Below are positions 11,766 through 35,625 of a DNA stretch of 64,000 nucleotides, one piece after another. Below the pieces are notes generated by a model. It saw nothing but the letters and a program-made list of their open reading frames with translations, ran no database searches and was not told the origin of the DNA. The number at the start of each line of letters is the position of its first letter. Position 1 is the stretch's first letter. The stretch is from a virus (lineage: Duplodnaviria; Heunggongvirae; Uroviricota; Caudoviricetes): positions 64,001 to 128,000 of the IMG/VR virus record IMGVR_UViG_3300029935_000001. One strand, 5' to 3'. A program made the position numbers and the translations under genes.

Positions 11766-11772
11766 AGTATAG

Positions 11773-11778
11773 TATTTA
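11773..11778 (-). promoter_or_regulatory. T4-type late promoter core TAAATA for the giant ORF
   Basis: TAAATA on the minus strand overlaps the gp6-like stop codon, just upstream of the ATG at 11765. Confidence 0.55.
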
Positions 11779-14700: not shown

Positions 14701-15204
14701 CTGGCTGTCTACTAGCATAGCATTCAGAATGGTGACCATTTGCTCGTACCAGTCTGGATTAGTTGAATCGTCCCACGACACTGCAACATCACGCAGGTTG
14801 TTGCCATTGTAGTCCGTTATGTTTTCGGTTGTACTAATGGAGAATAGCTTTAAAAACCCACTGGCAGTTTCGTTACGCTTAGGCGAATACGCAACCAGTT
14901 CAGCCAACTTAACTACACTTTCGCGGCGGTCTGCTGTTTCGAGAAAATTTTCGCGAGCGTTTAATTCGCTTCTAAAAGCAAGCGACTGTCCCATAAACGC
15001 TATTAAATCTAACAATGCTATAAACTCAGAAGATTCAACAAAATCGTTGAAAGTTTCTGGGTAGAAAGTGCGCAAATAATCAACAAAACTTTTGCGTATA
15101 GTTTCAAAGTCGTAACTCTGAAAATCCGCTTCCTGGTAAGTTTGATAAATCCTTTTCCAGTCTTCTATACCAAAAATAGCAGTTTGTCGGGTGGTGTTGG
15201 CCAT
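11776..15204 (-). CDS. Baseplate wedge subunit, T4 gp6-like (extended, 1142 aa)
   Basis: N-terminal DFETIRKSFVDYLR...FNDFVESSEFIALLDLIA...ENFLETA..RESVVKLA..V.Y.PKR, plus I.FGDG.F...P.G and ETIEEIK..AP..Y..Q.RMV..EDY, are gp6/baseplate J motifs. It is adjacent to the gp25-like gene. Confidence 0.85.
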   Translation of the reverse strand: MANTTRQTAIFGIEDWKRIYQTYQEADFQSYDFETIRKSFVDYLRTFYPETFNDFVESSEFIALLDLIAFMGQSLAFRSELNARENFLETADRRESVVKLAELVAYSPKRNETASGFLKLFSISTTENITDYNGNNLRDVAVSWDDSTNPDWYEQMVTILNAMLVDSQRVGRPGNKKTILGVETSQYSVNTVPGSLPTRAFTSKVNNVSMNFEAVSSDITTGRVIEAAPRLSAVFNLLYRNDQLGFASPNTGFFILFKQGSLQARDYNLTDRIANRNLDVEVPGVNNSDVWVFSADQNNEYSNQWTAVDSLVSPPDVQRNKNKWYYSITSGANDKVTINFGDGVFAEIPVGLLRVFCRSSNGLQYVITPNEMAAITITLPYVSRRNRVETATLTVGLTTAVSNAKVRETIEEIKARAPARYYSQHRMVNGEDYSNFPFTQYGSILKSKAVNRSTIGASRYLDLVDVTGKYSSTNVFGSDGVLYEEDELNNFSFSWNDLNDIADVIINRLEPLLASRAVSHFYYKERNYERPAFSTPYRWVQKTVQLNETTGYFINASDTPQVVGPLTSDNRRYLVPAALIKFVPPSGYFFNESNRLVFGEPGANQKAKYHIWATITSLKTDGANGGVGALEDGSGPISLNVFVPSNAILDKVIPVFSTDLPVGLEQDITREISLNLNFALGYNPYRREWFLIKGTALDQANQEAVAAGLPADQFQPATMADPYNPRSWLVRFETDTQTYTVTTRWLAYYFASLAETRFFYDGTQQVYDPKTGTVVNDYIRLLKTNTLPASLKPLDSDVILDIVGQPPEVDGHINDYRVSISFTDLNLDGIADDPDFFDYLVDDSSYVFFRVTRTSDNLEEVMPLAANSINVDYATETDLSVAIYSYDIGTTFYATAEHKIFVIELDASGQRMLSQRVIKGTEQPGQVPEFIISRGRQGLQYHYRHNSPTSRRIDPGSTNIIDLYLVVNSYYTEYQRYLRDTTNTIVEPIAPTVNELEVAYKDLNKYKMVSDNIVFNSVRFKPLFGDKAELGLRAAIKVVRNSKVNASDSEIKSKVIRAINEFFTIDKWDFGDTFYFSELAAFLHKELGELISSAVIVPRNPLQKFGALFEVKSRPNEIFVSAATVNDIEVIEAITTGNIRSE

Positions 15205-21485: not shown

Positions 21486-23306
21486 ATGGCCGCTAAAGTC
21501 AACTACCTAAACAACCGCGATCTTCTTAAAGAGATCCATCTTTCAAAAAACTCGTTCTGCACTTTCCGCGATCCTGTAAACGATCACCAATATGATGTTA
21601 TTGTAGAATCAGTAGCTGATATTCCCAGTTCGATTCCTACTGCGCAGCAAAACCGTGCCGACCGCATTAAACGAGCAACCGGTGAAGTGATAGAGCCATC
21701 GACTATTCCGCACACAGATTTGGTTTTTCGAGTAATCGAGTGGGAGCATATTCCGTTTGCTCCGCCTAAGGCCCCTAAGGCCAAGAAGAAAAAAATTGCC
21801 GAACTGTTTGATTTTGACGAAGAGCTCGACGACGATGAGGATTTTCCTCCTCTCGACGATGTTCACATTCGACTCAACTTTCCACCATTTTACCATTATC
21901 GCTTAAATGCAAGTGGCGAGCCGTTTATTGTGGGCAAGTCACACTGGAAGGGCACGCTCGAAGATGGCGAATTTTGCAGAACACATGGGTCAATTAACAA
22001 CAACTTAGCTCGTATGTTCCTCAAGCTGTGCGAACGCTACGCTACTCGGTCAAACTGGCGAGGGTATTGCGTCGACGACCAAACCGAAGCCCTTACAAAA
22101 CGCGGTTGGCTCGATGAATCTAAAATTACCACTGCTGATGAAATCTTATCGTTTAACGGCAATGAGATGGTCTGGTCGCCAATACGCTCTATTTTCCGAG
22201 ATGTGTATAACGGCAAAATGTTTAAGATGACATCGCGCGGGATCGACGCGCTAATGACCCCAGGGCACAAAATAGTAACCGACAAGGGCTTGACTAAAAT
22301 CGAGCACCTACTCGAGTCTGACCGAATCGTTATCATGGGCAAGGCACCTGAGTCACCCGAGACCGCAATATACAACGACGCGACCGTTGAGCTCGCCGGA
22401 TGGATTGTAACCGAAGGTAATTATCAGCCCAATAAACAAATAGTTACAATTTACCAAAACGAAGGCAGGTATGCTGATCGGATCCGCACCTGTCTAAATA
22501 CCTTAGGGTATGAGTATTCCGAAAGTAAATCGTTAAAATCCGAAAACATAGCCTTCTCAATTCGCCGCAAGCACTGGGGCGAGATCGTAGCATTGCTTCC
22601 AAACAAAAATCTAACCATGGAATTCTTGCTATCACTAACTTCTGCACAAAAAGAGTTGCTGTTATCGACTATGATCGACGGTGACGGGCACCGCGATGGA
22701 CTAAAAATGCGGTACACTCAGAAGAATAAAGAGCATATGAACATGTTCCAAGCTCTGTGCGCGCTAACTGGTCGCAAAGCCAACGTGAAATTCGTAGAGA
22801 ATAAGATGTCATTCGATAAACCAACCTCTTACTACACAGCGACTATCTTTACTGAGCGAGGAAATCATACCCGCGGTTCTTCGGTCGACCTGCACGGCGG
22901 TAAAAACAACGGTCGCAAGTCGCCCGGACAGGGGAAGTTTGCTCACCCTAATTTTCCCACAGTAGACTACACCGGAACTGTTTGGTGTCCCGAGACTGAT
23001 TACGGATGCTTCTTGGCTCGTCGCAATGGCATGCCATACCTAACTGGCAACACCTACAACGAAGAAATGAGAGGCCAAGCATTGCTCCAACTTGCTCAAG
23101 TTGGCTTACAGTTTGACGAATACAAATCACAAAACCCGTTTGCCTACTATACTACGGCTATTAAAAATTCGTTCACTCGCATTGTGAATTTAGAAAAGCG
23201 CAATCAAAACATTCGCGACGACATTCTCGAAATTAATGGTTTGAATCCAAGTTGGAGTCGGCAAAACTCTGCCGCAGGCGGTAGTCATAACTACGATTAT
23301 GACTGA
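21486..23306 (+). CDS. Late-transcription sigma factor (T4 gp55-like) interrupted by an intein; mature protein ~278 aa
   Basis: N-terminal NYLNNRDLLKEI. The spliced junction reads L.ERYATRSNWRGY/TYNEEMRGQALLQL..VGLQFDEYKSQNPFAYYT.AI.NSF.R....EK, a gp55-type core. It lies upstream of gp47/gp46. Confidence 0.8.
   Translation: MAAKVNYLNNRDLLKEIHLSKNSFCTFRDPVNDHQYDVIVESVADIPSSIPTAQQNRADRIKRATGEVIEPSTIPHTDLVFRVIEWEHIPFAPPKAPKAKKKKIAELFDFDEELDDDEDFPPLDDVHIRLNFPPFYHYRLNASGEPFIVGKSHWKGTLEDGEFCRTHGSINNNLARMFLKLCERYATRSNWRGYCVDDQTEALTKRGWLDESKITTADEILSFNGNEMVWSPIRSIFRDVYNGKMFKMTSRGIDALMTPGHKIVTDKGLTKIEHLLESDRIVIMGKAPESPETAIYNDATVELAGWIVTEGNYQPNKQIVTIYQNEGRYADRIRTCLNTLGYEYSESKSLKSENIAFSIRRKHWGEIVALLPNKNLTMEFLLSLTSAQKELLLSTMIDGDGHRDGLKMRYTQKNKEHMNMFQALCALTGRKANVKFVENKMSFDKPTSYYTATIFTERGNHTRGSSVDLHGGKNNGRKSPGQGKFAHPNFPTVDYTGTVWCPETDYGCFLARRNGMPYLTGNTYNEEMRGQALLQLAQVGLQFDEYKSQNPFAYYTTAIKNSFTRIVNLEKRNQNIRDDILEINGLNPSWSRQNSAAGGSHNYDYD
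22068..23051 (+). mobile_element. Intein with LAGLIDADG homing endonuclease, 328 aa
   Basis: Block A CVDDQTEALT, block B TPGH, LAGLIDADG motifs ELAGWIVTEG and LLSTMIDGDG, block F VWCPETDYGCF, C-terminal YLTGN and +1 Thr. Confidence 0.92.
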
Positions 23307-24897
23307 CTTAACTGCGTTGTCTGCGCACAAATACCTAACATTATCTAAGTTAGAGGAAGCTGATACCAATGGCTTACTCACACCTTTCAAAGTGTTAGGT
23401 ATTTCAAACCCACGGCAATTGTTATATCATTACACACAACAATTATTTTCTATCCCACAATGTCCGTGCGGCAATAAGCTTGAGTGGCACGCAGACCGGC
23501 GGCGCTATCGAGCTTATTGCTCTAAAAAATGTACCGCAACCTATTCTCAACAAAAAGCTAAGCTAACTAATATTGAAAAATATGGTGCGTCTCGCTTTTC
23601 ACAGACTGCCGAATTTCGAGACAAAATTAAAAAAACTTCATTACAAAAGTTTGGCACAGAGCACTATAGCCAAACCGCCGAGTGGGTTTCTCGAACTGCT
23701 GCCACAAATCAATATCGCTTCGGAGTTGATCGCCCAGCACAGAATTCAGCCATCGCTGAGCGCACAAAGCAAACAAACATTGCGCGTTATGGTAGCGCGG
23801 CGCCTGCAGGCTCTGCTCAAATTATTCAAAAAATAAAACAAACAAACTTACAAACGCGTGGCGTCGACAACCCCAGCAAAGCTCATTACTCTGCCGACGC
23901 TCTTGAGTTTTTAACTAACCTTGAATTATTCGCTTCAGAGTGTGCTCAGTTATCTGTAGCAGATTTGGCAAACAAATACCAGATATCAGTTAAACCAATA
24001 TACGACCGCATTAACGCGTTAGAACTTTCTATTCCAAAAAACCCGTCGCGGCTTGAAACCGAAATTGCTAGCTACATATCTAGCATATACAACGGCCCAT
24101 TGTCGCAAAACGTTCGACATTTAATTACTCCGTATCAACTTGACTTACTCCTTCCAGACTTGAACATCGGAATTGAGTGTAACGGCAGCTACTGGCACAG
24201 CGAGCTAAACGGCCGTGATCGTTTATACCACATTAACAAAACCAAACGATTAGCCGAAAAAAACATACGCCTTATTCACATTTGGGAACATCAGTGGGCA
24301 AATCAGAGACCTATTGTTGAGTCTATGCTTTCCACTGCGGTCGGGCAGAATCATCGGATTTACGCACGGGACTGCCAAGTTAAAAAAATCTCGCCTGCTG
24401 CTAGCCGGGAGTTTTTATCACAAACCCACCTCCAAGGGTCTGCTGCTGCTACAGTCCACTATGGACTCTTTTGGCAAAACAAGCTTGTTTCGGTGATGTC
24501 ATTTGGGCAAGCCCGGTTTAACAAACAATACCAATGGGAGTTGATACGGTTTGCAAGCAAACTACACACCACTGTTGTTGGAGGGGCTTCTAAATTGTTT
24601 CGCCGTTTTATTCGAGATTTTTCTCCGACTACTGTATTATCGTACTGCGACCTTTCGTTTTCTGCTGGTAACTTATACCAAAAACTCGGGTTTGAATTTT
24701 CTCACAACAGCAACCCTAATTATTTTTACACTGCAAATTACAAAGATTTTTTTTCGCGGCACAAATTTCAAAAACACCGATTAAAAAATCTAATAGAAAA
24801 TTTCAATCCAGCACTATCCGAATGGGAAAATATGAAAGCTAACGGATGGGATAGAATTTGGGATTGCGGCAACGGAGTTTACATTTTTAAATTATGA
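23299..24897 (+). CDS. Free-standing putative homing endonuclease (Cys-rich N-terminus, (K/R)YG repeats, PD-(D/E)XK/Vsr-like nuclease, GNAT/Mom-like C-terminal domain)
   Basis: CPCG...YCSKKC, repeated TN..(K/R)(Y/F)G, QLDLLLPDLNIGIECNGSYWH and WELIRFA...VGGASKL...SYCD. It overlaps both neighbours and is paralogous to 39761..41632. Confidence 0.7.
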   Translation: MTDLTALSAHKYLTLSKLEEADTNGLLTPFKVLGISNPRQLLYHYTQQLFSIPQCPCGNKLEWHADRRRYRAYCSKKCTATYSQQKAKLTNIEKYGASRFSQTAEFRDKIKKTSLQKFGTEHYSQTAEWVSRTAATNQYRFGVDRPAQNSAIAERTKQTNIARYGSAAPAGSAQIIQKIKQTNLQTRGVDNPSKAHYSADALEFLTNLELFASECAQLSVADLANKYQISVKPIYDRINALELSIPKNPSRLETEIASYISSIYNGPLSQNVRHLITPYQLDLLLPDLNIGIECNGSYWHSELNGRDRLYHINKTKRLAEKNIRLIHIWEHQWANQRPIVESMLSTAVGQNHRIYARDCQVKKISPAASREFLSQTHLQGSAAATVHYGLFWQNKLVSVMSFGQARFNKQYQWELIRFASKLHTTVVGGASKLFRRFIRDFSPTTVLSYCDLSFSAGNLYQKLGFEFSHNSNPNYFYTANYKDFFSRHKFQKHRLKNLIENFNPALSEWENMKANGWDRIWDCGNGVYIFKL

Positions 24898-25907
24898 ACC
24901 TTTTTAAGAAAGCAATCGTCTTTACAGACATTCATTACGGGCTGAAAAACAACTCGGTTAGACACAATCAAGACTGCCATGAATTTATCGAATGGGTAGT
25001 AAGATTAGGAAAAGAACAAGGGTGCGACACTTGTTTGTTCCTCGGCGACTACCACAACAACCGAGCCTCAATCAATCTCCATACTATGAATTACGGTGTT
25101 CGTGGTCTCGAGTTACTTGCAAAGAACTTTGACCAGGTGTTTTTCATTCCGGGAAACCATGATTTATACTACCGCGACAAGCGTGACATTCACGGTCTTG
25201 CGTGGGCGCCACATATCCAAAATATCCACATCATCAACGACTGGTTTAAGGAGGGCGATGTTGTCATTGCTCCCTGGCTCATTAACGAAGACCACAAGAA
25301 AATCGCCAGGCAAAAAGGCACCTATATGTTCGGTCACTTTGAGCTGCCGTCATTTATGATGAACGCGCAGGTCGAGATGCCCGATACTGGCGAGGTCCGG
25401 CTCGAGGACTTCCAGCGTTTTGATTCTGTCTTTTCGGGCCACTTCCACATTCGCCAGCGGAAAGGTAATATCCACTATATCGGCAATGCCTTTCCGCATA
25501 ACTACTCCGACGCCGGCGACGATCGTCGCGGTGCTATGATCCTCGAGTGGGGTAAGAAGCCCCAATACTTTACCTGGGACCAGCAACCTACGTATCGTGT
25601 CTTTAAGCTGTCTGAGCTAATTGACCGTCACGAAACTCTACTGAACAAAAACGTCCACGCTCGTGTCCACCTTGACATCGACATTTCATACGAAGAGGCT
25701 TCTTTTATCAAGGAAACATTTGTGTCTAAATACAATGTCCGCGAAATGTCCTTGATTCCAGTCAAGGGCGAAGCAGTAGCGCAGGATTTGGCACCCGGTG
25801 ATATCAAATTCGAATCGGTTGATCAAATCATTCACCAACAGCTAACCGCTATTAACTCTGAGTTTTACGATCCGGCACTACTCCTACAAATCTATCAAAA
25901 TCTATGA
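24894..25907 (+). CDS. Recombination endonuclease subunit, gp47/Mre11/SbcD-like
   Basis: Metallophosphoesterase motifs FTDIHYG, FLGDYH, PGNHD, GHFE and FSGHFH. Confidence 0.93.
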   Translation: MNLFKKAIVFTDIHYGLKNNSVRHNQDCHEFIEWVVRLGKEQGCDTCLFLGDYHNNRASINLHTMNYGVRGLELLAKNFDQVFFIPGNHDLYYRDKRDIHGLAWAPHIQNIHIINDWFKEGDVVIAPWLINEDHKKIARQKGTYMFGHFELPSFMMNAQVEMPDTGEVRLEDFQRFDSVFSGHFHIRQRKGNIHYIGNAFPHNYSDAGDDRRGAMILEWGKKPQYFTWDQQPTYRVFKLSELIDRHETLLNKNVHARVHLDIDISYEEASFIKETFVSKYNVREMSLIPVKGEAVAQDLAPGDIKFESVDQIIHQQLTAINSEFYDPALLLQIYQNL

Positions 25908-27661
25908 TCGTTTTTAAGAACATTACAGCAAAAAATTTCCTGTCTATAGGCAACGCTACCCAAGGAATCAACCTCGATCGTTCTGACCTAACACTTATTT
26001 TAGGCGAGAACCAAGATCTCGGTTCCAATGGTAGTCGTAACGGGGTTGGCAAAACTTCATTACTAAACGCAATCTCATACGCGCTGTACGGCCAGGCGCT
26101 AACTAACATCAAGCAAGATAACCTAATTAACCTAACTAATGCCAAGGGCATGGTGGTTAGCTTAGAGTTTTCTATCAACGGCAAAGAGTATAGAATCGAA
26201 CGTGGTCGCAAGCCTAAGGTATTGAGGTTCTTTATTGATAACAAAGAACAAGAAACCGATGACAACGCACAAGGCGACTCTCGGCAGACCCAAGTTGCAA
26301 TCGAAAACTTACTTGGGATGAGCCACGACATGTTTAAGCACGTTGTTGCCCTTAATACCTACACCGAACCGTTTCTTAGTTTAAAGGCTAACGACCAGCG
26401 AGCGATCATCGAACAGCTTCTTGGCATTACCTTGTTGTCCGAAAAGGCTTTGGCAGTTAAAGAACAAATCAAGCTAACGCGAGATGCCCAGCAGTCTGAG
26501 GAATTTCGGTTAAAAGCTATTCAAGAAGCCAACAAACGTGTAACTGAGCAGATTGATAGCCTGCGACGTCGGCAAACCGTTTGGCAAAACAAAAACGCAC
26601 AAAATATTACCGAGCTCGAAGGCGCGATCCAAGCACTCGAGCATATTGATATTGCAGCCGAAGTAGAATCACATCGTCAACTTGTTGAATGGAACGCTGC
26701 TGTATCCAAGCAAGCCCAAGTTGGGCAAGCACTACAGCGCGAAAAAGACGACTTGGCGCGAGCAGAAAAAGACTTTACTAAGCTTATTCAGGAAATTGAA
26801 CAATTAAAGAACCACACCTGCTACGCGTGCGGTCAAGCGTTTCACGATAGTAAACACGAAGAGGTTTTATCCAACAAAGAAAGTCAAGCTGCTACGCGGA
26901 CCGATTCGATTGCTCGGCACACAGGAACAGTTGCTTTGCTCGAAGCTGAACTCAACGAAGCTGTAATCCCAGGCCCAAAGCCTGATGTCTTTTATAGTAG
27001 CCTCGAAGAAGCATTGGGGCACAAAAATAGTTTAGAAGTATTGCAACGCGACCTCGAAATTGCTAAACGCGAAACCAATCCATATAGCGAGCAAATTGCC
27101 GAGATGGAACATCGGGCTTTGCAGGAAGTCAAATACGACACCATTAATGAACTGTCGCGTATGCTCGATCACCAAGAGTTTTTGCTCAAGCTTCTAACCA
27201 ACAAAGATTCGTTTATCCGTAAAAAGATTATCGATCAAAACCTTAGCTACCTAAACAGCAGACTAACTTATTACCTTGACAAAATTGGGTTGCCGCACGA
27301 AGTGGTATTCCTTAATGACCTTAGTGTTCAAATCACTGATTTGGGCCGCGACTTAGACTTCGACAATTTGTCACGCGGCGAACGCAATCGCTTAATTATT
27401 AGTTTGAGCATGTCGTTCCGCGACGTCTGGGAATCACTTTATCAGCCAATTAACCTACTCCTTGTTGACGAAATGCTTGACTCGGGACTTGATCCGGTAG
27501 GAACCGAAGGCGCAATGGCTATTCTCAAGAAAATGACACGCGAGCGCAAGAAATCGATTTTCTTAGTTACTCACCGCGAAGAGTTTATAAGTCGGGCAGA
27601 AAATGTCTTAATGGTAATCAAGGAAAATGGATTTACAACTTATATCAGTGACCAGCAATAA
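25904..27661 (+). CDS. Recombination ATPase subunit, gp46/Rad50/SbcC-like
   Basis: KNFLSIGN, Walker A NGVGKT, coiled coil with CYAC zinc hook, signature LSRGE, Walker B LLLVDE and H-loop VTH. Confidence 0.95.
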   Translation: MIVFKNITAKNFLSIGNATQGINLDRSDLTLILGENQDLGSNGSRNGVGKTSLLNAISYALYGQALTNIKQDNLINLTNAKGMVVSLEFSINGKEYRIERGRKPKVLRFFIDNKEQETDDNAQGDSRQTQVAIENLLGMSHDMFKHVVALNTYTEPFLSLKANDQRAIIEQLLGITLLSEKALAVKEQIKLTRDAQQSEEFRLKAIQEANKRVTEQIDSLRRRQTVWQNKNAQNITELEGAIQALEHIDIAAEVESHRQLVEWNAAVSKQAQVGQALQREKDDLARAEKDFTKLIQEIEQLKNHTCYACGQAFHDSKHEEVLSNKESQAATRTDSIARHTGTVALLEAELNEAVIPGPKPDVFYSSLEEALGHKNSLEVLQRDLEIAKRETNPYSEQIAEMEHRALQEVKYDTINELSRMLDHQEFLLKLLTNKDSFIRKKIIDQNLSYLNSRLTYYLDKIGLPHEVVFLNDLSVQITDLGRDLDFDNLSRGERNRLIISLSMSFRDVWESLYQPINLLLVDEMLDSGLDPVGTEGAMAILKKMTRERKKSIFLVTHREEFISRAENVLMVIKENGFTTYISDQQ

Positions 27662-27693
27662 TTAGTAGGATATGTAGGTACATAAATACCTAC

Positions 27694-27777
27694 ATGCCAA
27701 GTAAATCAAAAACCAAAGGGTTGGGGTGGGAGCTCGAAGTAGCTAAGTTCCTACCAGGCTGTTATCACTCTGCATAA
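27694..27777 (+). pseudogene. 27-codon 5' stub resembling the N-terminus of an Hjc-type Holliday junction resolvase
   Basis: MPSKSKTKGLGWELEVAKFL matches the S.K.KG..(W/F)E.EVA..L start of Hjc/PD-(D/E)XK resolvases, then reads PGCYHSA and stops. It has its own late promoter at 27683-27688. Confidence 0.55.
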
Positions 27778-27800
27778 ATAAACATAATGCGGAGTTTAAA

Positions 27801-28856
27801 ATGGATTTAGGACACTGGGAGTTTTCTTGTGAGTTTGAGCCGACTGAGTGGTTCGGGTTTGTATATCGTATCATCGACCTCACTACGATGCAAGAATACA
27901 TAGGCAAAAAACAATTTTTTTTCACTGTCCGGAAAGTTGTCCGAGGCCGGAAAAACAGAAAAGTTGTCAAAAAAGAATCAGACTGGCGGACCTACACAAG
28001 CTCATCCGCCCATGTCAACGCGGCCATTGAATTAAAAGGCAAAGAAAACTTTCTTTTTAAAATCGAGTCATTGCATAAAACTAAAGGATCATTGTCTTAT
28101 GCCGAAGTCCAAACACAACTATTTGAAGATGTTCTTTGTGCTAAACTTGACGACGGTGTTACCCCCAAGTTTTATAACCGCCAGATCCCCGGTATTAAAT
28201 TTATACCACCAGAAGAGCACAGCGAAGAAACCAGAATCAAAATACAACATTCGTTGAAAACTCGATATGCTTCAAACCCGTATTGGAAGGATCACCTAAC
28301 TGACGAACAAAAAGAAGAGTTCTTGGATAATTTTTACCGAGGTGAAAACCATTATCTATACAGAAAAATGTCCACATTTGAACGGGCTCAGTTTATAGCT
28401 GACACTAAATCTGGCAAAAACAACCCGATGTTTGGGCAAACTCCTTGGAACAAAGGGTTAACATTCGAAGAGATGCACCAAGAGTTTGCCGAAGATGTCC
28501 GGCAAACTCTCCGTGAGAAATGTGTTTCTATGGGGTTTAAAGGACACTCGCACACAGAGGAGCAAAAAGAAGCGTGGCGCTCTGACGAACGACGAATTAA
28601 ACGCGGCGACGCTAACGGAATGTTTGGCAAACCATGCTTTTACAATATGTCAGATGATCGAAAAGCACAATGGGCCGCCAACATTAGCAAAGCATCAAAG
28701 GGCAAACCAAAAAGCGAAGACCATAAACAAAAGATACGGGCGGGACTAACAGGATTGAAAAGAAAGCAAGTAACCTGCCCGCATTGCGGAAAAACCGGCG
28801 GGGTAAACAATATGTTTCGCTATCACTTCGACCGCTGTAAATTTATCCAACATTGA
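27801..28856 (+). CDS. GIY-YIG endonuclease with NUMOD3-like C-terminal repeats (homing endonuclease-like)
   Basis: GFVYRI...EYIGKK, ESDW.TY.SS, FYN; C-terminal GKNNPMFG, HSHTEE, GKPKSEDHKQKI and CPHCGK. TAAATA lies at 27775-27780. Confidence 0.85.
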   Translation: MDLGHWEFSCEFEPTEWFGFVYRIIDLTTMQEYIGKKQFFFTVRKVVRGRKNRKVVKKESDWRTYTSSSAHVNAAIELKGKENFLFKIESLHKTKGSLSYAEVQTQLFEDVLCAKLDDGVTPKFYNRQIPGIKFIPPEEHSEETRIKIQHSLKTRYASNPYWKDHLTDEQKEEFLDNFYRGENHYLYRKMSTFERAQFIADTKSGKNNPMFGQTPWNKGLTFEEMHQEFAEDVRQTLREKCVSMGFKGHSHTEEQKEAWRSDERRIKRGDANGMFGKPCFYNMSDDRKAQWAANISKASKGKPKSEDHKQKIRAGLTGLKRKQVTCPHCGKTGGVNNMFRYHFDRCKFIQH

Positions 28857-28890
28857 AAAATTTTTCTGCGGTGAAAGATTTGTGTAAATA

Positions 28891-29835
28891 ACTGTGTCTA
28901 GCACAATGCGGCCGCGCTGAAGCTTATGGTGACGGGGTGCGTCGCGCCGCTAGACCAGTGAAAAATTCTTCTGAGACCATCTCATATAATTTCTAGGATA
29001 CACCCGATAGCTGCAACTTATGGAAGTAGTGTATCGGTAGTGCGTTTTTGCGTAATTTTCCCTACTCGGGTGGCAAATTAGGCACTCTTCAGCGGTGATG
29101 ACTAGTGACCGTGTCGTAACAGTTAACGGTTAGTCCCGGGACTCGACCAGTGGGTTGAGTGGGTTGTACCAAACTAGCGGAAAATGCTAGCCCTAGCCTT
29201 AAGCAAGCACCTTACGGACTATAAATAGAATTCTGGCTTTGTCTGGCATACGCTGGTATGCCCTCATTGAGCTAGCCGAGGTAGTGCTCGTCGCCAGCGG
29301 ATCTTGAGTGCCAACCCGACATGTTGATGATCTCAGCATGTCCGTTAAGGAGATACGAGAATCTCTAAATGATGTGGGCACTGCTAAAAGTCAACCCACG
29401 CCTTGGCCCTTTCGATTGTGGGGGAGTAAGCCAGGGTCCGCTGTCAGTCAAGTCTGGATGTATGGGGGTACAGGACAACCGCCTCCGCGCAATATGCAGA
29501 GTAATATGCTGCTGAGCAATCGCCTCCCACAATATGGTGTAAGAACTCACATGAAACTGAGCTTCTTTTTCATTTTTGCCCGTTCTGGGCAAAGTATGGC
29601 TGAATCTACATGAACCAGCAGCAGCTTAAATCACTTCGTTAACAAATAATAAAGCGTAACAACAATGTTAACCGTTTCTACAGTGGTTTAATAAAAAGCT
29701 CACGAGTGATGAGTGAGCTGCTAAGCGAAACGAATAAACGAAGTGAGCAAGCGAACTTCGTTCGCTTCTAAACTATCTTCTAAAGTAAAACCACTGTGGT
29801 GTTATTTGCGTCAGGGATTGCGAGCGTAAAATCAA
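28891..29835 (+). ncRNA. Candidate large structured non-coding RNA (family unassigned)
   Basis: About 1 kb with no credible ORF in a gene-dense genome. It starts right after TAAATA (28885-28890), contains many local and long-range helices, and ends at a terminator hairpin. The strand is inferred from the promoter. Confidence 0.55.
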
Positions 29836-29866
29836 AAAAAATAGCACATCCTTTGTGTGCTATTTA
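29833..29866 (-). terminator. Intrinsic terminator of the gp26/gp51 unit, possibly bidirectional
   Basis: AAATAGCACA-TCCTT-TGTGCTATTT inverted repeat preceded by an A-run, which is a U-tract on the minus strand. Confidence 0.7.
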
Positions 29867-30052
29867 GAAATACGGCAATCCAGTTTTCTTCACTACTTCG
29901 TGATTGTCTTTAACAATCTTCCCGATTATTTCCCGTTCCTTTTGGCTTAACCCTAGTGCTACATCGTATGTGACTCCTCCCCGCATGGACCAGGAAACGC
30001 GTAAGCATTCTTCTCGAATTGCCTGGCATTCCCGGTCCATAGTAGAGAACAT
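29864..30052 (-). CDS. gp51-like baseplate hub/tail assembly chaperone; possibly made as the -1 frameshift extension of the upstream gene
   Basis: W.MRGGV.Y..A..LS..ERE.I motif. The frame stays open upstream to the slippery site at 30094-30103. Confidence 0.65.
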   Translation of the reverse strand: MFSTMDRECQAIREECLRVSWSMRGGVTYDVALGLSQKEREIIGKIVKDNHEVVKKTGLPYF

Positions 30053-30078
30053 CTTCTCTACTTGTTCCCTACTTGCAG

Positions 30079-30918
30079 TTAAGAGTCGGAGCCGAAAAAA
30101 TTTGAAACGTCCAACGTAAACGGCGTTTCGTATGTTTGGTTACATTCTTCGTTTTGGCATTGGATAACCAATGGTTTTATTTCTGCTTTTTGCCGCAACT
30201 CGATAACTCGATCGCGTATCACGTTAAACGTTGCACTGTCAGCTTTGGCGACAAATTCTTCAATGTGCTGTTTGTCAGTTACTAACGTGTCGGGTGTTTT
30301 GATAGCTGCAATGCTGTTAGCAATAGCAGACACAGTAAGATGCTTTATTGCCGAAAACGCTTCCTGTATCCGCTTTAGCTTTTCATCCTCGGGCATCTGG
30401 GCAGCTGAGATGGCACTCAATGCTCGCTGCTCATTGAATTGAGTCTTATTATTTTCGTCTAGCTCGCGGTAGCTTAGTGGCTTACAGTATATTTCTAAAC
30501 CAGCAACTTGTAGAGCTTGGTCGTATTCAGGAGCTTCGAGTTGGTCAAGGATGGATCTCAAATCCAGTTCAAATTCGTTTTCGTGACCACAGTGGGGGCA
30601 TGTAGATTCGAAGTCCATCGAGTGCCCGTACGATGCAATTCTGATACCAATTAGTAATGCGTCTAAGTCGATTACTGGCATTTCCCATGGGTCTTGAATG
30701 GCAGGAACACAACTTTTTATTACATCAACAATAGCGCTGCCATTGAATAGCGCGTCAGGGGTGCGGTAAGTAATTTCATCGATTGCAGTCATTGGGTACA
30801 CCGGAACTTCCCCATTGGCTGGTAAGTTAAGCGCATTATTGTAGTAAAACTTGCCTCGACTCAATAGTGGCAAGTGAATAGCGGGTTGGCGAAAAAATTT
30901 AGCTAACGGATTAGACAT
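30079..30918 (-). CDS. gp26-like baseplate hub assembly protein / tail assembly chaperone
   Basis: LPL.SRGKFY, VYPMTAIDEI, IDLDALLI.IRIASYG, two Cys clusters (CPHC and CQNEEC) and a C-terminal NFF. Confidence 0.75.
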   Translation of the reverse strand: MSNPLAKFFRQPAIHLPLLSRGKFYYNNALNLPANGEVPVYPMTAIDEITYRTPDALFNGSAIVDVIKSCVPAIQDPWEMPVIDLDALLIGIRIASYGHSMDFESTCPHCGHENEFELDLRSILDQLEAPEYDQALQVAGLEIYCKPLSYRELDENNKTQFNEQRALSAISAAQMPEDEKLKRIQEAFSAIKHLTVSAIANSIAAIKTPDTLVTDKQHIEEFVAKADSATFNVIRDRVIELRQKAEIKPLVIQCQNEECNQTYETPFTLDVSNFFGSDS

Positions 30919-30965
30919 GTAGGTATTTCCTGGTTAAATAATAATAATACTTATGGTAACCAAAA

Positions 30966-33752
30966 ATGACTGATCAAAATATCCTTGACATGCTTGACGA
31001 AATACGGCGCCAAACGCAAATCTTAGAGTCGATTGCAAAAGGCACAAGTGTCGGGCCCAACCGACCGAGCCCGGCCAGCCGGAACGCCCCGGGAGAGACC
31101 CGCGAGGAGCGCCAGCAGCGCAAAGCTGCTCGCGAGCTTGGAAACCAGTTTGACGATCTAGCAGACTCGTCAAAGGGCGTTACAGTAAGTTTTGATCAGC
31201 TTGCTCGCCGCACTAACTTAGCAATGCTAGCGTTTGCTAAGCAAACACTACAGATGTCAAACAACTTGTCCTCGCTTAAACCGGCTATTAGTGCAGTTTC
31301 AAATGTAGCTGCTACTGCGGTGTCGGCAATAACTGGCGCGGTAGGTAATGCGGTATCAACGCTCAGTCTTCTGGGCGGCCCTATTACAAAGATTGTGGGT
31401 ACCATAACCGGCGGCCTAGTCGGTGCCGTGGGCACAGCATCAGCGGAATTAATAAAAGCGGCCGGCGAGGGTGCTGGGCTAGTGCTTGAGCAAATGGAAG
31501 CAATTAGCAATAATTACACAGCAATTGCTCAACTCGGCGGCGCTACTGCCCGCGGCATGACTGACTTGTATGAATCAGTAGGTGAAACCGGTATCCGTAT
31601 GGAGCAGTGGGCAGCGTTAGTAGGCAAACATTCTGAGAAGTTGGCCTTTTCCTTTGGGTCTGTGGGCGATGGCTTGTTAACCGTCAATCAAGCTGCTGAG
31701 AAAATGCGCAAGACAGGCATTACTGAGCAGTTTCTGCGGTTAGGAGTCGGAGTAGATGAACAAGCATCGGCGCTAGCATCGTATTCGAAAATGCACTCGA
31801 TGAATTCACGCCGCGAAAAGCTCAGTGTTGATCAGCTTATCGAAGGAACCCAGCGCTGGTACACTGAAATAGACCAAATAGCAAGGGCAACTGGTAAATC
31901 TCGCGAAGCCATTAACGAAAGTGTGCTCGCTCAACAGCGTAGTCTGCGCTGGGGCGCGACAATGGAGATCCTCAACCGTCGCCAAACTGACCTAGGAAAT
32001 AAGCTCGCTGCTAGCTTTGAAAAAGTTGACGCTGTAACTGGCGGCACGTTTGTTACTGATGCATTGCGCGACATCTTCTCAGGTGGCCGGTTGGGTAAGG
32101 AAGCGCAATCACTAATGACATTGGCCGGGCAAGACATAATTCCGATAGTTGACAATATCAAACGAGGGTTACTTGGTGCCGACGAAGGTATGAGTCAAAT
32201 TGTCGACGCAATTGCTAAGCGCGGTGGCACAGGCGCTATTAACTTAGAGTCATTGGTTGGTAACCAATTAGCGGAGCTCGGCGAAGTCCTAAGAGCTGCG
32301 CGCCTGTCGCAAAACTTTATCGCCGCTGGTGAATCGCTTGATGCATATGCAGGAAAATTAAAAGACTCGCAGCAAAGCGTAATCAAAGGCAACGACCTCA
32401 CTACCAATAACATTGCTAGCACGCAAGAAGCAGTAATGGATATTTACGCTGAGATTCAAAAAGCGTTTAGCAAGGTACTACCTTCTGCCTCGACTCAAAT
32501 CGCTAATTTTGCCGATGTGATTAGCGAAAAATTGCCGCTAATGGCTCAAGCGATTGACGACTATATCGAAAAATTAACCGGAAATCGTCCAGTTTCGGCT
32601 TTTAATAAGCAGATGCAGGCTGCCGAATCTGCGCGCCGCAACACAGCAACAGTTTCGGGGACCCCCGAAACTGGTCAGCGCGGAACGTTCTGGGAAAACG
32701 TATCCGGAAAAGTGTCTCCGGAAAACGTAGCGTCTCTGCTGTCGGATGTTGGAATAACCAACACGCGGGCCCAGGCTAATATTTTAGCACAGTTGCAAGC
32801 AGAATCAGGGTTCCGTCCTCGATCCGAAAACCTTCAGTACAGCGGAAAGAAATTGTTTGAAATGTACGGTCCCAATCAAACTCGCAATAAAGTTAGATTT
32901 AATAGTTTAGCCGAAGCCGAAGCGCTATCGAAGCAAGGCCCTGAGGCAATTGGAAACGTAATATATGGCGGCCGCATGGGGAATGCCGTCAATGAAGGGT
33001 TTTTGTATAGAGGCCGAGGTCTTATTCAGCTCACCGGCAAGGATAATTATGCAAAGTATGGACGAATAATCGGCGAAGACTTGGTTAATAACCCAGACCT
33101 AGCTAATGATCCGCAAATTGCTAAGAAAATTGCCGTCGCTTATATGCAAGAGCAACAAAAAGCCGGCGTAAACTTAGCTGACATACAGCAAGTAGGAAAA
33201 GCAATGGGATTTGCTACGAACGACCAAGCGTCGCGAGCTGCGCTAGCATCAGATTTTGAAAAACGGTTGCAACGCGGCGGATTCCGTGACGGTGGAATTT
33301 CCACCGGTCCAATGACCGGATACACACAGCTTTTACACGGAACTGAGGCTATTGTGCCTTTGCCCGACGGAAAAACTATACCAGTAGACTTAAATTTTTC
33401 GAGTATTACTCGAAAAATGACGCAAGATTTTAAAACTACAAATGCTGATCAAAATAAGTTCAGCCCGGCAGATTTAGTTAAGAACTTAACGGCTGATTTT
33501 AAAACTACAATGGCCGGCCCGCTTGAAAAGCTAGCACTTAATTTAAACAGCATTCAAGCACAGCAACAATTGCCAGCACGCGTAGAGCAGCCATCTGGCC
33601 TTAACTCGCCCGAGCTACGCGAAATGAACGCCAAAATGACTGAACAAATGAGCGCAATGAATGCACAAATTTCGAAGCTGACTGAAGTGGTAGATATCCT
33701 GCGCCGCAGCAATGCTACTAATGAAAAGCTTTTACAAGCGGCACGAAACTAA
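30966..33752 (+). CDS. Tape-measure-like protein with an internal GH19 (chitinase/lysozyme) peptidoglycan hydrolase domain
   Basis: Long Ala/Gly-rich helical body. AQLQAESGF...SENL and YGGRMGN...GFLYRGRGLIQLTGKDNY are GH19 signatures, followed by GGI..GP..GY...LHG.EAIVPL. TAAATA lies at 30935-30940. Confidence 0.75.
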   Translation: MTDQNILDMLDEIRRQTQILESIAKGTSVGPNRPSPASRNAPGETREERQQRKAARELGNQFDDLADSSKGVTVSFDQLARRTNLAMLAFAKQTLQMSNNLSSLKPAISAVSNVAATAVSAITGAVGNAVSTLSLLGGPITKIVGTITGGLVGAVGTASAELIKAAGEGAGLVLEQMEAISNNYTAIAQLGGATARGMTDLYESVGETGIRMEQWAALVGKHSEKLAFSFGSVGDGLLTVNQAAEKMRKTGITEQFLRLGVGVDEQASALASYSKMHSMNSRREKLSVDQLIEGTQRWYTEIDQIARATGKSREAINESVLAQQRSLRWGATMEILNRRQTDLGNKLAASFEKVDAVTGGTFVTDALRDIFSGGRLGKEAQSLMTLAGQDIIPIVDNIKRGLLGADEGMSQIVDAIAKRGGTGAINLESLVGNQLAELGEVLRAARLSQNFIAAGESLDAYAGKLKDSQQSVIKGNDLTTNNIASTQEAVMDIYAEIQKAFSKVLPSASTQIANFADVISEKLPLMAQAIDDYIEKLTGNRPVSAFNKQMQAAESARRNTATVSGTPETGQRGTFWENVSGKVSPENVASLLSDVGITNTRAQANILAQLQAESGFRPRSENLQYSGKKLFEMYGPNQTRNKVRFNSLAEAEALSKQGPEAIGNVIYGGRMGNAVNEGFLYRGRGLIQLTGKDNYAKYGRIIGEDLVNNPDLANDPQIAKKIAVAYMQEQQKAGVNLADIQQVGKAMGFATNDQASRAALASDFEKRLQRGGFRDGGISTGPMTGYTQLLHGTEAIVPLPDGKTIPVDLNFSSITRKMTQDFKTTNADQNKFSPADLVKNLTADFKTTMAGPLEKLALNLNSIQAQQQLPARVEQPSGLNSPELREMNAKMTEQMSAMNAQISKLTEVVDILRRSNATNEKLLQAARN

Positions 33753-33867
33753 CCACCATTATAATCGGCGGTAAATACACCATGATCAGTAAATATCTAA
33801 AACAAAACGTTAATGACACTGAGCCAACAAGATCCAGTCTTGGGTTGTTGTATTGGAGAATCACATA

Positions 33868-35625
33868 ATGGCCGAACAGACTAAAGGATGGAAAAAGTAT
33901 TTTAAGCTAGCCAACCAAGACGGAGTGATGAGTCCTATTTCTGGACAGACCTCCCGACCGGGGCACGAGCATGCTTCACAGTCGTTTGGATTTAAGAACT
34001 ACGCATCGTCGTTGCCAGAAGTGTATGTTGGGCATCCAAATCGTATTGAGCGTTATAATCAATACGAAGCAATGGATGCCGACTCGGAGATCAATGCGTG
34101 TTTGGACATCATTGCTGAATTTTCCACTCAATGGAACGAAAAAAATAACACACCGTTTGAAATACGTTTCAAAGACAAACCTACGGATTCTGAGGTAGAA
34201 ATCCTCAAAAAGCAGCTTCAACAGTGGGTCAAGTTGAATCAATTTGACAAGCGTATGTTCAAGCTATTCCGCAATACAATTAAATATGGGGATCAAGTAT
34301 TCGTTCGTGACCCTGAGACATTTGAGTTAATGTGGGCTGACATGACCAAAGTAGTTAAGGTTATCGTCGACGAGCTGCGTGGCAAAGAGCCCGAGCAGTA
34401 TGTAATACGCGACCTTAACCCTAACTTTAAGAATTTAACTGTTGCAGCCAAGACTACGCTTGATGCCGCTGCTAACCCTGTAGGCGGGGCCTCGCCGGCT
34501 CAAGGATATACTGTGCCTGGGTCTCAAGTTGGTGGCACCACCGGCCGATTTGCAGCCGCAGTAAATGAAAGTGTAATAGACGCTGAGCATGTACGACACA
34601 TCTCGCTTAGCGAAGGGCTAGATCCAAATTGGCCGTTCGGTACGTCAATCCTCGAAAACATCTTCAAGGTGTTTAAGCAAAAAGAGCTACTTGAAGACGC
34701 AATCCTAATCTACCGCGTACAGCGCGCGCCCGAGCGCCGAGTGTTTTACATCGACGTAGGCAACATGATGCCTCACATGGCTATGGCGTTTGTAGAGAGA
34801 GTAAAAAACGAAATCCACCAGCGCCGCATTCCAACTATGAACGGCGGCGGATCGTCAATGCTAGACGCAGCCTACAACCCGCTTAGCATTCACGAAGATT
34901 ATTTCTTCCCGCAGACTGCCGAAGGCCGAGGCTCGAAAGTCGAAACGCTCCCAGGCGGCGAAAATCTTGGTCAAATCGACGATCTTAAGTATTTTAACAA
35001 CAAACTATGTCGTGGTCTACGAGTACCGTCTAGTTATTTGCCAACCGGGCCTGACGATCAAACTACGCCACTCAGCGACGGTCGTGTTGGTACTGCACTA
35101 ATACAAGAGTATCGCTTCAACCAGTATTGTCAACGCCTTCAGAGTCTTATAATCTCTGCGCTTGACGACGAGTTTAAGATGTTCTTAAATTGGCGTGGGT
35201 TCAATATTGACTCTGGCATTTTTGACTTAACCTTTACTCCGCCGCAAAACTTTGCGTCTTATCGGCAGACTGAGCTCGATTCAACGCGTGTTAATGTATT
35301 CCAGTCACTTGAGCAAGTTCCATATCTGAGTAAGCGATTTTTGTTGCAACGATTTCTTGGGCTTTCGAAAGAAGAAATGCTCGAAAACGAAACTCTGTGG
35401 CACGAAGAGCGAGACGAACCCGGGGCAATTACTCCAACCGGTGATGACTTGCGATCAGTTGGTGTTATGCCAGGCGGCATGAATGCCGACATTGAAATGG
35501 GCGACGAGTTTGGCGAGCCCGGAGATCTCGAAGCTGGGGAGATGGAAATGCCCTCAGAAGCTCCGGGCGCACCGCCGTTAGGTGGACCGACTCCTCCAGC
35601 TGCAGCAACTCCTCCGGCGCAATAA
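33868..35625 (+). CDS. Portal vertex protein, gp20-like
   Basis: LLEDAILIYRVQRAPERRVFYIDVGNM, EDYFFPQ...GRGSKVETLPGGENLG.IDDL.YF..KL..GLRVP.S. Start moved to the ATG after GGAG at 33868. Tandem TAAATA motifs at 33772 and 33790. Confidence 0.95.
   Translation: MAEQTKGWKKYFKLANQDGVMSPISGQTSRPGHEHASQSFGFKNYASSLPEVYVGHPNRIERYNQYEAMDADSEINACLDIIAEFSTQWNEKNNTPFEIRFKDKPTDSEVEILKKQLQQWVKLNQFDKRMFKLFRNTIKYGDQVFVRDPETFELMWADMTKVVKVIVDELRGKEPEQYVIRDLNPNFKNLTVAAKTTLDAAANPVGGASPAQGYTVPGSQVGGTTGRFAAAVNESVIDAEHVRHISLSEGLDPNWPFGTSILENIFKVFKQKELLEDAILIYRVQRAPERRVFYIDVGNMMPHMAMAFVERVKNEIHQRRIPTMNGGGSSMLDAAYNPLSIHEDYFFPQTAEGRGSKVETLPGGENLGQIDDLKYFNNKLCRGLRVPSSYLPTGPDDQTTPLSDGRVGTALIQEYRFNQYCQRLQSLIISALDDEFKMFLNWRGFNIDSGIFDLTFTPPQNFASYRQTELDSTRVNVFQSLEQVPYLSKRFLLQRFLGLSKEEMLENETLWHEERDEPGAITPTGDDLRSVGVMPGGMNADIEMGDEFGEPGDLEAGEMEMPSEAPGAPPLGGPTPPAAATPPAQ

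What the first reader, a model, noticed from the sequence alone, without database searches (positions are those of the whole stretch)
28885..29640. Candidate large, ornate, late-expressed non-coding RNA
Seen: the only kilobase-scale non-coding gap in the window, starting right after TAAATA and almost continuously paired. Helices include ACTGTGTCTAGC/GCTAGACCAGT (28891-28959), CCGATA/TATCGG, TAATTT/AAATTA, GACTA..ACCGT/ACGGT-TAGTC, ACTCGACC/GGTTGAGT, CTAGC/GCTAG, GGCATAC/GTATGCC, GACATGTTGA/TCAGCATGTC, GTGGG/CCCAC and TTTGCCC/GGGCAAA. Long-range pairs include CCTTACGGAC (29210) with GTCCGTTAAGG (29340) and ATTGTGGG (29415) with CCCACAAT (~29526). Several stems use G-T pairs on the plus strand, as expected for RNA. 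A TATGG..GAA..ACATGAA motif occurs twice (~29533-29555, ~29595-29614), and a perfect TATAAATA sits at 29220. Known: phages encode large structured RNAs such as GOLLD and ROOL. Inference: a multi-domain RNA of 0.7-0.95 kb, possibly an undescribed class. I cannot assign it to a family.
Basis: partly seen in the sequence, partly recalled or inferred. Interest (0 to 1): 0.85.

Follow-up and report, generated by a model that had tools for sequence, protein, structure and literature searches.

The report
Twin-box phage RNA, three paralogs
The right-hand 400-530 bases of this gap encode a real, doubly knotted non-coding RNA of a large family of uncultured T4-like phages; the family is mostly missing from RNA databases and its function is unknown, and this 323-kb phage unusually carries three diverged copies.

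Summary
The finding is partly right. Only window ~29234-29625 (+), probably extending to ~29765, is a conserved structured RNA.

- **Left part:** 28885-29219 folds no better than shuffles (z -0.74) and has no homologue in 220 related loci.
- **Family:** the core recurs twice more in this genome. It also occurs in more than 100 IMG/VR phage contigs, ~3.5-6 kb upstream of the portal gene in the 32 distinct portal-anchored loci.
- **Structure:** in 37 sequences, 30 pairs of the central domain, including a pseudoknot, are 93.7% paired against 38-51% in slid controls. G.U outnumbers A.C 208 to 13, so the RNA is read from the + strand.
- **Twin boxes:** Position 1 flips at least 22 times and is identical in 77 of 79 sequences. 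No complementary partner lies in or near the RNA.
- **Databases:** Rfam has no match for the window. In some relatives the 5' domain is Polynucleobacter-1 (RF01718, function unknown).
- **Scan history:** earlier agents of this scan reported the same family on other genomes.
- **New here:** three paralogs with three different box words, where 22 of 25 related records show one copy. This copy also has a 5' domain that does not match RF01718.
- **Function:** unknown.

The parts
27801..28856 (+). SegE-like GIY-YIG homing endonuclease gene (351 aa) directly upstream. A frequent but not obligatory neighbour of the RNA.
   Evidence: PF19835 at 3.5e-31, plus a weak, sub-threshold NUMOD3 match (18.3 bits against a 20.4 cut-off). 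Its N-terminal domain is 38% identical to the 142-aa GIY-YIG ORF upstream of the RNA in L043. Paralogs B and C and L047 lack it.
28885..29219 (+). Lineage-specific spacer with a TAAATA word (28885-28890) and a long hairpin (28891-28959). Not part of the conserved RNA.
   Evidence: z -0.74 on + and 0.05 on -. No DNA or translated match in 220 related loci or elsewhere in the genome. Not shared by paralogs B and C.
29220..29227 (+). TATAAATA, a promoter-like word 6 nt before the point where the three paralogs start to align.
   Evidence: A has TATAAATA, B TAATAAAT and C TATAAAAA at the same place. TAAATA occurs 35 times on + and 14 on - in the window, and lies upstream of 12 of 17 + strand genes. 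TATAAATA itself is not enriched. Promoter function is inferred.
29234..29312 (+). 5' domain. P1 is 29235-37/29310-12, P2 29245-51/29256-62, P3 29263-66/29305-08 and P4 29271-80/29287-98, with the invariant stretch ATTGAGCTAGCCGAGGTAGTGCTCGT.
   Evidence: Alifold of the three paralogs with compensatory changes in P1-P3. The same domain type occurs in L004 and L006. It does not match RF01718.
29318..29366 (+). Two hairpins in an insert found only in this genome's paralogs (GACATGTTGA/TCAGCATGTC; GGAGAT/ATCTCT).
   Evidence: The insert is absent from relatives. B and C carry different sequence at this place that also looks like hairpins, read by eye and not counted.
29367..29489 (+). Central domain. 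P6 is 29374-78/29395-99 and P7 29401-07/29430-36. Pseudoknot 1 is formed by GCTGTC 29440-45 with GACAAC 29474-79, interleaved with GGGGGT 29464-69 / GCCTCC 29481-86.
   Evidence: Alignment A4, 37 sequences, 30 pairs: 93.7% paired against 38-51% slid; 144 double-change cells against 18-33; 0 of 500 shuffles reach the observed values. G.U 208 against A.C 13. Covariance model R1 scores this copy at 95 bits.
29415..29422 (+). Pseudoknot 2, 5' strand (ATTGTGGG in the P7 apical loop).
   Evidence: Pairs with 29526-29533. The homologous loop and segment are complementary with many different words across the family. The own pair reaches 7 or more bp in 67 of 81 sequences, against 21% of swapped pairs.
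29526..29533 (+). Pseudoknot 2, 3' strand (CCCACAAT, just 5' of twin unit 1).
   Evidence: In B the pair is GGCTGAA/TTCAGCC and in C GGTGTAG/CTACACC.
29533..29557 (+). Twin unit 1 (TATGGTG..GAACTC + box 1 ACATGAA at 29549-29555).
   Evidence: Identity covariation with unit 2.
29575..29593 (+). Conserved hairpin between the boxes (TTTGCCC GTTCT GGGCAAA).
   Evidence: Present in 73 of 81 family members by a strict search. The stem covaries, for example TTCACCG/CGGTGAA.
29594..29616 (+). Twin unit 2 (GTATGGCTGAATCT + box 2 ACATGAA at 29608-29614).
29631..29800 (+). Probable 3' module. It includes hairpin 29738-29764 (ACGAAGT GAGCAAGCGA ACTTCGT) with the family's GAGC..AGCGA loop.
   Evidence: The motif lies within 200 nt downstream of box 2 in 63 of 72 members, 56 of them with a stem of 5 or more bp, against 1 of 72 in a control window. 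It follows all three paralogs in this genome. Whether it belongs to the same transcript is inferred.
29839..29865 (.). Hairpin AAATAGCACA..TGTGCTATTT between the RNA and the convergent baseplate-hub gene. Possible shared terminator.
   Evidence: Scored as a terminator-like site on the - strand. On the + strand only 3 T follow, so the RNA's 3' end is not fixed.

Best explanation
Window ~29234-29625 (+), probably continuing to ~29765, is a stand-alone gene for a structured non-coding RNA of about 0.4-0.55 kb. It belongs to a large family carried by uncultured T4-like (mostly jumbo) phages.

In other lineages the 5' domain of this family is the Rfam motif Polynucleobacter-1. The rest of the RNA is uncatalogued.

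Shown:
- The molecule acts as RNA from the + strand.
- It folds into a 5' domain, a central domain locked by two pseudoknots, and a 3' domain.
- The 3' domain presents the same 7-nt word twice (here ACAUGAA), on either side of a conserved hairpin.
- The scaffold is conserved, while the two boxes change often and always together.
- This genome carries three paralogs with three different words.

Inferred:
- Transcription from its own TAAATA-type promoter.
- The boxes are a specificity element read in trans by something that tells A from G. A nucleic acid bound twice, or two copies of one, seems most likely (about 30-35%). The three paralogs would then address three partners.

The biological role is unknown.
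For: **Conservation**
- Two further copies lie in the genome. There are exactly three by covariance model.
- nhmmer finds 151 related loci, of which 112 are full length and 81 are under 93% identical.
- In the 32 distinct portal-anchored loci the RNA is on the + strand, ~3.5-6 kb upstream of the portal gene.

**Structure**
- 29 of 90 pairs are compensated among the three paralogs alone.
- Central domain with pseudoknot 1: 93.7% paired, covariation score 0.445 against 0.108 or less in slid controls, 0 of 500 shuffles.
- Pseudoknot 2 is supported in 67 of 81 sequences.

**Strand**
- 208 G.U against 13 A.C cells.
- MFE z is -2.5 to -3.0 on + and -1.2 on -.

**Twin boxes**
- The highest mutual information in the whole RNA is between the two boxes: APC-MI 0.89, 0.90, 0.64 and 0.76.
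- Position 1 changes at least 22 times on the tree and is identical in 77 of 79. All 8 of 8 independent pairs go the same way, p about 0.008. Position 5 gives 7 of 7.
- The paralogs carry ACAUGAA, CUGGAR and UCGAAU.

**Stand-alone gene**
- The three copies sit in three different gene contexts.
- The copy in the window is convergent with the next gene.
Against:
- The promoter and the 3' end are inferred. TATAAATA itself is not enriched.
- No partner for the boxes was found. No column of the RNA covaries with them in a complementary way, and no complement lies within 1 kb on either side.
- Most family members use only six words of the form RGAURAW. That looks more like a constrained motif than a free address.
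- In paralogs B and C the two boxes match over only 5-6 nt.
- The tree used for counting changes is a quick one built on about 310 columns.
Confidence: 0.85

Rival explanations
1. The twin units are two binding sites for a protein, such as a dimer or a K-turn/K-loop binder. Each unit reads RUGAC..N(8-10)..RGAURA, which resembles a D'/C' box pair. The RNA would then be a protein scaffold or sponge rather than a base-pairing RNA.
For: Two units of the same build flank a hairpin. Only six RGAURAW words are common. No nucleic-acid partner was found in cis. The resemblance to box C'/D' K-loops is from my own knowledge and was not tested.
Against: A protein site does not explain why free A/G and U/A choices must be the same in both units (77 of 79 and 76 of 77 identical). 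It also does not explain three paralogs in one phage carrying quite different words, including words without the GA dinucleotides a K-turn needs.
Confidence: 0.2
2. The RNA is cargo or a cis element of the GIY-YIG homing-endonuclease cassette. It could be a 3' UTR, a processing signal, or the conserved target next to which the endonuclease inserts. On this reading it has no function of its own.
For: A SegE-type GIY-YIG gene lies directly upstream on the same strand, both here and in L043. Judging from a shared coding 3' end in the alignment, it does so in many relatives. Weinberg et al. 2010 also noted a conserved upstream gene family for Polynucleobacter-1.
Against: Paralogs B and C, and L047, have the RNA without the nuclease gene. 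The RNA is far more conserved than a UTR needs to be, with two pseudoknots. An endonuclease that inserts beside a conserved RNA gene, as segB does in the T4 tRNA cluster (my own knowledge), explains the adjacency without making the RNA dependent on it.
Confidence: 0.08
3. The element acts as DNA. The direct repeats would be iterons of a replication origin or sites for a recombinase or packaging enzyme, and the apparent RNA structure would be incidental.
For: Direct repeats that stay identical are typical of protein-read DNA sites. The position beside the baseplate genes recalls oriE of T4, from my own knowledge and untested.
Against: Compensatory changes occur in at least 6 helices. There is strong strand asymmetry: 208 G.U against 13 A.C, and 93.7% paired on + against 76.1% on -. 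Three copies with three different words would need three different proteins.
Confidence: 0.04
4. The region codes for a small protein (the 101-aa frame 29308-29613), or the boxes are take-off and landing sites for ribosomal bypassing as in T4 gene 60.
For: In most members the boxes read sense codon plus UGA or UAA. The frame 29308-29613 ends at the UGA of box 2.
Against: The frame has no family match. Box spacing varies from 48 to 62 nt with no rule modulo 3. The open frames running into the boxes have a median of 5 codons. The paralogs differ by indels that are not multiples of three.
Confidence: 0.01

Closest known systems
Polynucleobacter-1 RNA motif (Rfam RF01718; Weinberg et al. 2010, Genome Biol 11:R31, PMC2864571)
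   Same: In relatives (L087 120 bits, L088 39 bits, L092 33 bits) RF01718 lies immediately 5' of the domains shared with the window's RNA, at the syntenic place. Both are found in aquatic metagenomes, downstream of a conserved small gene, with unknown function.
   Different: The window's three copies do not match RF01718 at the thresholds searched: E up to 10 for the window copy and E up to 1 for B and C. Their 5' domain is another type, shared with L004 and L006. RF01718 covers 141 nt. The central domain, both pseudoknots, the twin boxes and the 3' hairpin are not in any Rfam model.
GOLLD and ROOL large ornate RNAs (Rfam RF01998, RF03087; cryo-EM: PMC12286853)
   Same: Large, multi-domain, phage-borne non-coding RNAs of unknown function. 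Like GOLLD, this family has a conserved 3' part combined with alternative 5' domains.
   Different: No Rfam match. The RNA is smaller (0.4-0.55 kb). It is not next to tRNA genes. No evidence of oligomerisation was sought or found. GOLLD and ROOL have no reported twin-box feature.
'Twin-box' / extended Polynucleobacter-1 phage RNA reported by earlier agents of this scan on other genomes (e1-3440727, e1-5341615 and others)
   Same: Same family by my own independent derivation: about 400 nt, pseudoknotted, often behind a small GIY-YIG gene, with two identical 7-letter boxes that change together and an unknown reader.
   Different: This genome has three paralogs with three different, atypical box words. 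All three lack a recognisable RF01718 domain. Of 25 related records, 22 have one copy, one a weak second hit and two no hit.

Membership tests
Polynucleobacter-1 RNA (RF01718) | Match to the Rfam covariance model at or above the gathering score (37 bits) | tested here: not met
   No hit in window 27500-31200 at E up to 10, nor in L002 or L003 at E up to 1. Homologous loci of relatives do hit, at 120, 39 and 33 bits.
Polynucleobacter-1 RNA (RF01718) | Lies downstream of a conserved small phage-type gene (GOS11034 in Weinberg 2010) | tested here: inconclusive
   A SegE-type GIY-YIG gene lies upstream here and in L043. That this is GOS11034 is my inference. Paralogs B and C lack it.
Twin-box phage RNA (uncatalogued family defined in this scan) | Central domain with P6, P7 and the interleaved pseudoknot CCGUUGnn / GGRGG / nnCAACCG / CCYCC | tested here: met
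   Model R1 scores 95.1 bits at G000:93356-93491, which is window 29356-29491.
Twin-box phage RNA (uncatalogued family defined in this scan) | Second pseudoknot between the P7 apical loop and the segment 5' of unit 1 | tested here: met
   29415-22 ATTGTGGG with 29526-33 CCCACAAT. Family-wide.
Twin-box phage RNA (uncatalogued family defined in this scan) | Two identical 7-nt boxes, 48-62 nt apart, flanking a conserved hairpin | tested here: met
   ACATGAA at 29549-55 and 29608-14, 59 nt apart, with the hairpin at 29575-93.
GOLLD / ROOL / HEARO / OLE / RNase P / tmRNA / group I and II introns | Match to the family's Rfam covariance model | tested here: not met
   No match at gathering score in the whole window. 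No match at E up to 10 in 27500-31200. ARAGORN finds no tRNA or tmRNA.
Group I intron carrying a homing endonuclease | Interrupts a host gene whose two halves flank the element | tested here: not met
   The flanks are complete genes: gp46-like 25904-27661 and a baseplate hub on the other strand, 30079-30918. The endonuclease is free-standing.

The most novel reading that the evidence does not exclude
The RNA is a programmable scaffold. A conserved, doubly knotted body presents a duplicated, rapidly switching address that base-pairs with a nucleic-acid target, either a host or rival-phage RNA or DNA. This phage has expanded it to three addresses. That would be a new class of phage RNA-guided, or decoy, function.
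Probability: 0.1. Interest if true: 0.9.

Novelty: new variant of a known kind. Interest (0 to 1): 0.68.

Why it matters
- **A large unexplained family.** Large structured RNAs of unknown function are rare, and each one solved so far has revealed new biology. Only a third of it, in some lineages, is catalogued.
- **An unusual constraint.** Two boxes kept identical through at least 22 switches are not explained by any RNA motif I know of. They point to an unidentified reader.
- **What this genome adds.** Its three paralogs, with three different words on one scaffold, argue against a single invariant reader. They also provide a natural set of variants for experiments and for target searches.

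Tried and rejected
- **Rfam:** no family at the gathering score or at permissive thresholds for the window.
- **tRNA and tmRNA:** none.
- **GenBank phages:** no blastn match with three different family members. No cultured phage carries the RNA at this sensitivity.
- **Bacterial genomes:** a 17-nt pattern gave 120 hits, all chance by nhmmer.
- **Baseplate-hub protein as a synteny probe:** no pattern matches. The portal protein worked instead.
- **Relatives of a virus record:** these cannot be drawn by the genome search.
- **RNAalifold on a trimmed global MAFFT alignment of all 81 sequences:** nearly empty structure. The alignment was too poor, so I worked by domain instead.
- **Cis partner for the boxes:** no exact 7-nt complement inside the RNA. 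A G.U-tolerant match at about position 112 occurs in one clade only and is mostly wobble pairs. No complementary covariation with any column. Nothing consistent within 1 kb on either side. No third copy of the box.
- **Phage tRNAs as partners:** only the trivial finding that paralog C's word UCGAAU equals the common T-loop sequence.
- **Translation or ribosomal bypass reading of the boxes:** rejected.
- **T4 late promoter TATAAATA as a marker:** not enriched. The shorter TAAATA is strand-biased.

Full report
**Setting.** The window is bases 64001-128000 of a 323,407-bp phage genome from IMG/VR with direct terminal repeats.
- Around the finding lie the following:
  - gp47/gp46-like SbcD/SbcC genes (24894-27661).
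  - A free-standing SegE-type GIY-YIG endonuclease gene (27801-28856).
  - The gap itself.
  - A baseplate-hub gene on the other strand (30079-30918).
  - A gp5-like gene and the T4-type portal gene (33853-35625).
- The nearest cultured phages by portal protein are only 50-57% identical: Agrobacterium Atu_ph07, Sinorhizobium Phosso and Pseudomonas PA5oct.

**Observation.** The gap is real, and the quoted helices are in the sequence.
- The whole stretch 28885-29640 folds better than shuffles on the + strand (z -3.0) and not on the - strand (z -1.2).
- Split in two, the signal comes from the right part. 29234-29640 has z -2.52. 28880-29219 has z -0.74 on + and 0.05 on -.

**Extent.**
- A search of the phage's own genome found two further partial copies of the right part only, near 217.6 kb and 310.5 kb.
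- The three copies (A in the window, B, C) begin to align a few bases after a TATAAATA-like word. A has TATAAATA at 29220, B TAATAAAT and C TATAAAAA.
- The left 340 nt of the gap match nothing else in the genome. They match nothing in 220 related loci either, as DNA or translated.
- The conserved element therefore starts at about 29234.
- A hairpin with a GAGC..AGCGA loop follows all three copies. It also follows 63 of 72 family members within 200 nt of the second box, against 1 of 72 in a control window. In the window it is at 29738-29764, so the RNA probably reaches at least that far.

**Family.**
- Using the portal protein as a synteny anchor, I fetched 80 related phage loci.
- A profile of the three paralogs found homologues in 32 distinct loci, all on the portal's strand and ~3.5-6 kb upstream of the portal gene.
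Almost all proved to be true members.
- In all, 112 are full length and 81 are less than 93% identical.
- The same pattern in bacterial genomes gave only chance hits. GenBank phages gave nothing.

**Structure.**
- Among the three paralogs alone, 29 of 90 predicted pairs keep pairing through changes on both sides.
- For the central domain I aligned 37 diverse members and added by eye a pseudoknot: CCGUUGnn pairing with nnCAACCG, interleaved with GGRGG/CCYCC.
  - The 30 pairs are 93.7% paired, against 38-51% when the partner is slid.
  - There are 144 cells with changes on both sides, against 18-33.
  - The covariation score is 0.445, against at most 0.108.
  - No shuffle of 500 reaches any observed measure.
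- G.U cells outnumber A.C cells 208 to 13, so the fold belongs to the + strand RNA.
  - The apical loop of helix P7 is complementary to the segment just 5' of the first twin unit.
  - Dozens of different words are used. B has GGCTGAA/TTCAGCC and C has GGTGTAG/CTACACC.
  - A run of 7 or more pairs occurs in 67 of 81 sequences, against 21% when loops are swapped between sequences.

**Twin boxes.**
- Each member has two units, RUGAC-N(6-9)-CUC/UCU-box, on either side of a conserved hairpin.
- The strongest mutual information anywhere in the RNA is between equivalent positions of the two boxes, and it is identity, not complementarity. The values are 0.89, 0.90, 0.64 and 0.76 after correction. No other column exceeds about 0.3.
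- On a tree built without these columns:
  - Box position 1 changes at least 22 times in each box yet is identical in 77 of 79 sequences.
  - All 8 independent contrasts go the same way (p about 0.008).
  - Position 5 gives 13-14 changes, 76 of 77 identical, and 7 of 7 contrasts.
- Six words of the form RGAURAW account for most members.
- Searches for an explanation:
  - No complementary partner inside the RNA.
  - None within 1 kb on either side.
  - No third copy of the box.
  - No link to translation: spacing is 48-62 nt with no rule modulo 3, and the frames running into the boxes are short.

**What is special here.**
- A covariance model of the central domain finds exactly three copies in this genome.
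- In 22 of 25 related records it finds one copy. These include two records that are 99-100% complete, of 337 and 345 kb. One further record has a doubtful second hit and two records show none.
- Copy A is the syntenic one. B lies upstream of a GTP cyclohydrolase I gene, and C lies downstream of an RNA ligase gene.
- The three carry different and atypical words: ACAUGAA, CUGGAR and UCGAAU. In B and C the match between the two boxes is only 5-6 nt.
- All three have a 5' domain with the invariant ATTGAGCTAGCCGAGGTAGTGCTCGT. This domain is shared with L004 and L006. It does not match Rfam.

**Comparison with known families.**
- Rfam 15 has no match in the window at its own thresholds, nor at E up to 10.
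- In several relatives the stretch directly 5' of the shared domains is Polynucleobacter-1 (RF01718), at 120, 39 and 33 bits.
- That motif was described in 2010 from lake and marine metagenomes, downstream of a conserved gene family and with no known function. It had not been found in any purified phage. I found no later paper on it.
- The upstream gene here and in L043 is a SegE-type GIY-YIG protein. The RNA also occurs without it, so the nuclease is better seen as a frequent neighbour.
- Earlier agents of this scan reported the same family on other genomes. I reached the same picture independently before reading those notes.

**Mechanism.**
- Shown: a conserved, + strand, doubly pseudoknotted RNA with two co-switching boxes.
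- Inferred: its own promoter. TAAATA words are strand-biased, 35 on + against 14 on -, and precede 12 of 17 + strand genes.
- Inferred: the 3' end.
- Inferred: the reading of the boxes in trans.
  - Three different words on one scaffold in one phage argue against a single invariant reader, and for a specificity role.
  - The narrow RGAURAW vocabulary elsewhere argues for a structural or protein-read motif.
  - I put a base-pairing address at about one in three and a protein-binding pair of sites at about one in five. The rest is unknown.

Noticed in passing
window 28885-28959: A TAAATA word directly after the endonuclease gene is followed by a long, nearly perfect hairpin (ACTGTGTCTAGC...GCTAGACCAGT). 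It is not conserved in any relative and its role is unknown.
   Followed up: partly
whole window, + strand: TAAATA (often GTAAATA) occurs 35 times on + against 14 on -. It lies within 90 nt upstream of 12 of 17 + strand genes, most of them structural. It is probably this phage's late-promoter core, shorter than T4's TATAAATA.
   Followed up: partly
window 29631-29800: Interleaved repeats rich in CGAA and GAGUGA surround the conserved hairpin 29738-29764. In relatives a single-stranded UCGCUUCGCUC after box 2 is the exact complement of the downstream hairpin loop GAGCGAAGCGA. This suggests a third pseudoknot or a switch.
   Followed up: partly
L003:315-890 and L003:1492-1900 (G000 ~217.5 kb): Paralog C lies about 600 nt downstream of an RNA ligase gene (PF09414). 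Its box word UCGAAU equals the common tRNA T-loop sequence, found in 8 of the phage's 27 tRNAs. This may be chance.
   Followed up: partly
L002:2123-2830 (G000 ~311 kb): Paralog B lies just upstream of a GTP cyclohydrolase I (folE) gene on the same strand.
   Followed up: no
window 23299-24897: A 532-aa homing-endonuclease-like gene (phrog_3339, DUF7487, with a weak Mom-like C-terminus) lies directly before the gp47/gp46 genes. It is a second mobile nuclease within 5 kb of the RNA.
   Followed up: no
G017:C1:62692-62822 (record behind L124): Weak second hit of the central-domain model (16.5 bits, E 0.01) in a related 192-kb record. It is the only other hint of more than one copy per genome.
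   Followed up: no
window 3-15204, - strand: Very large ORFs, of 3972 aa (running off the window) and 1142 aa. Not examined.
   Followed up: no
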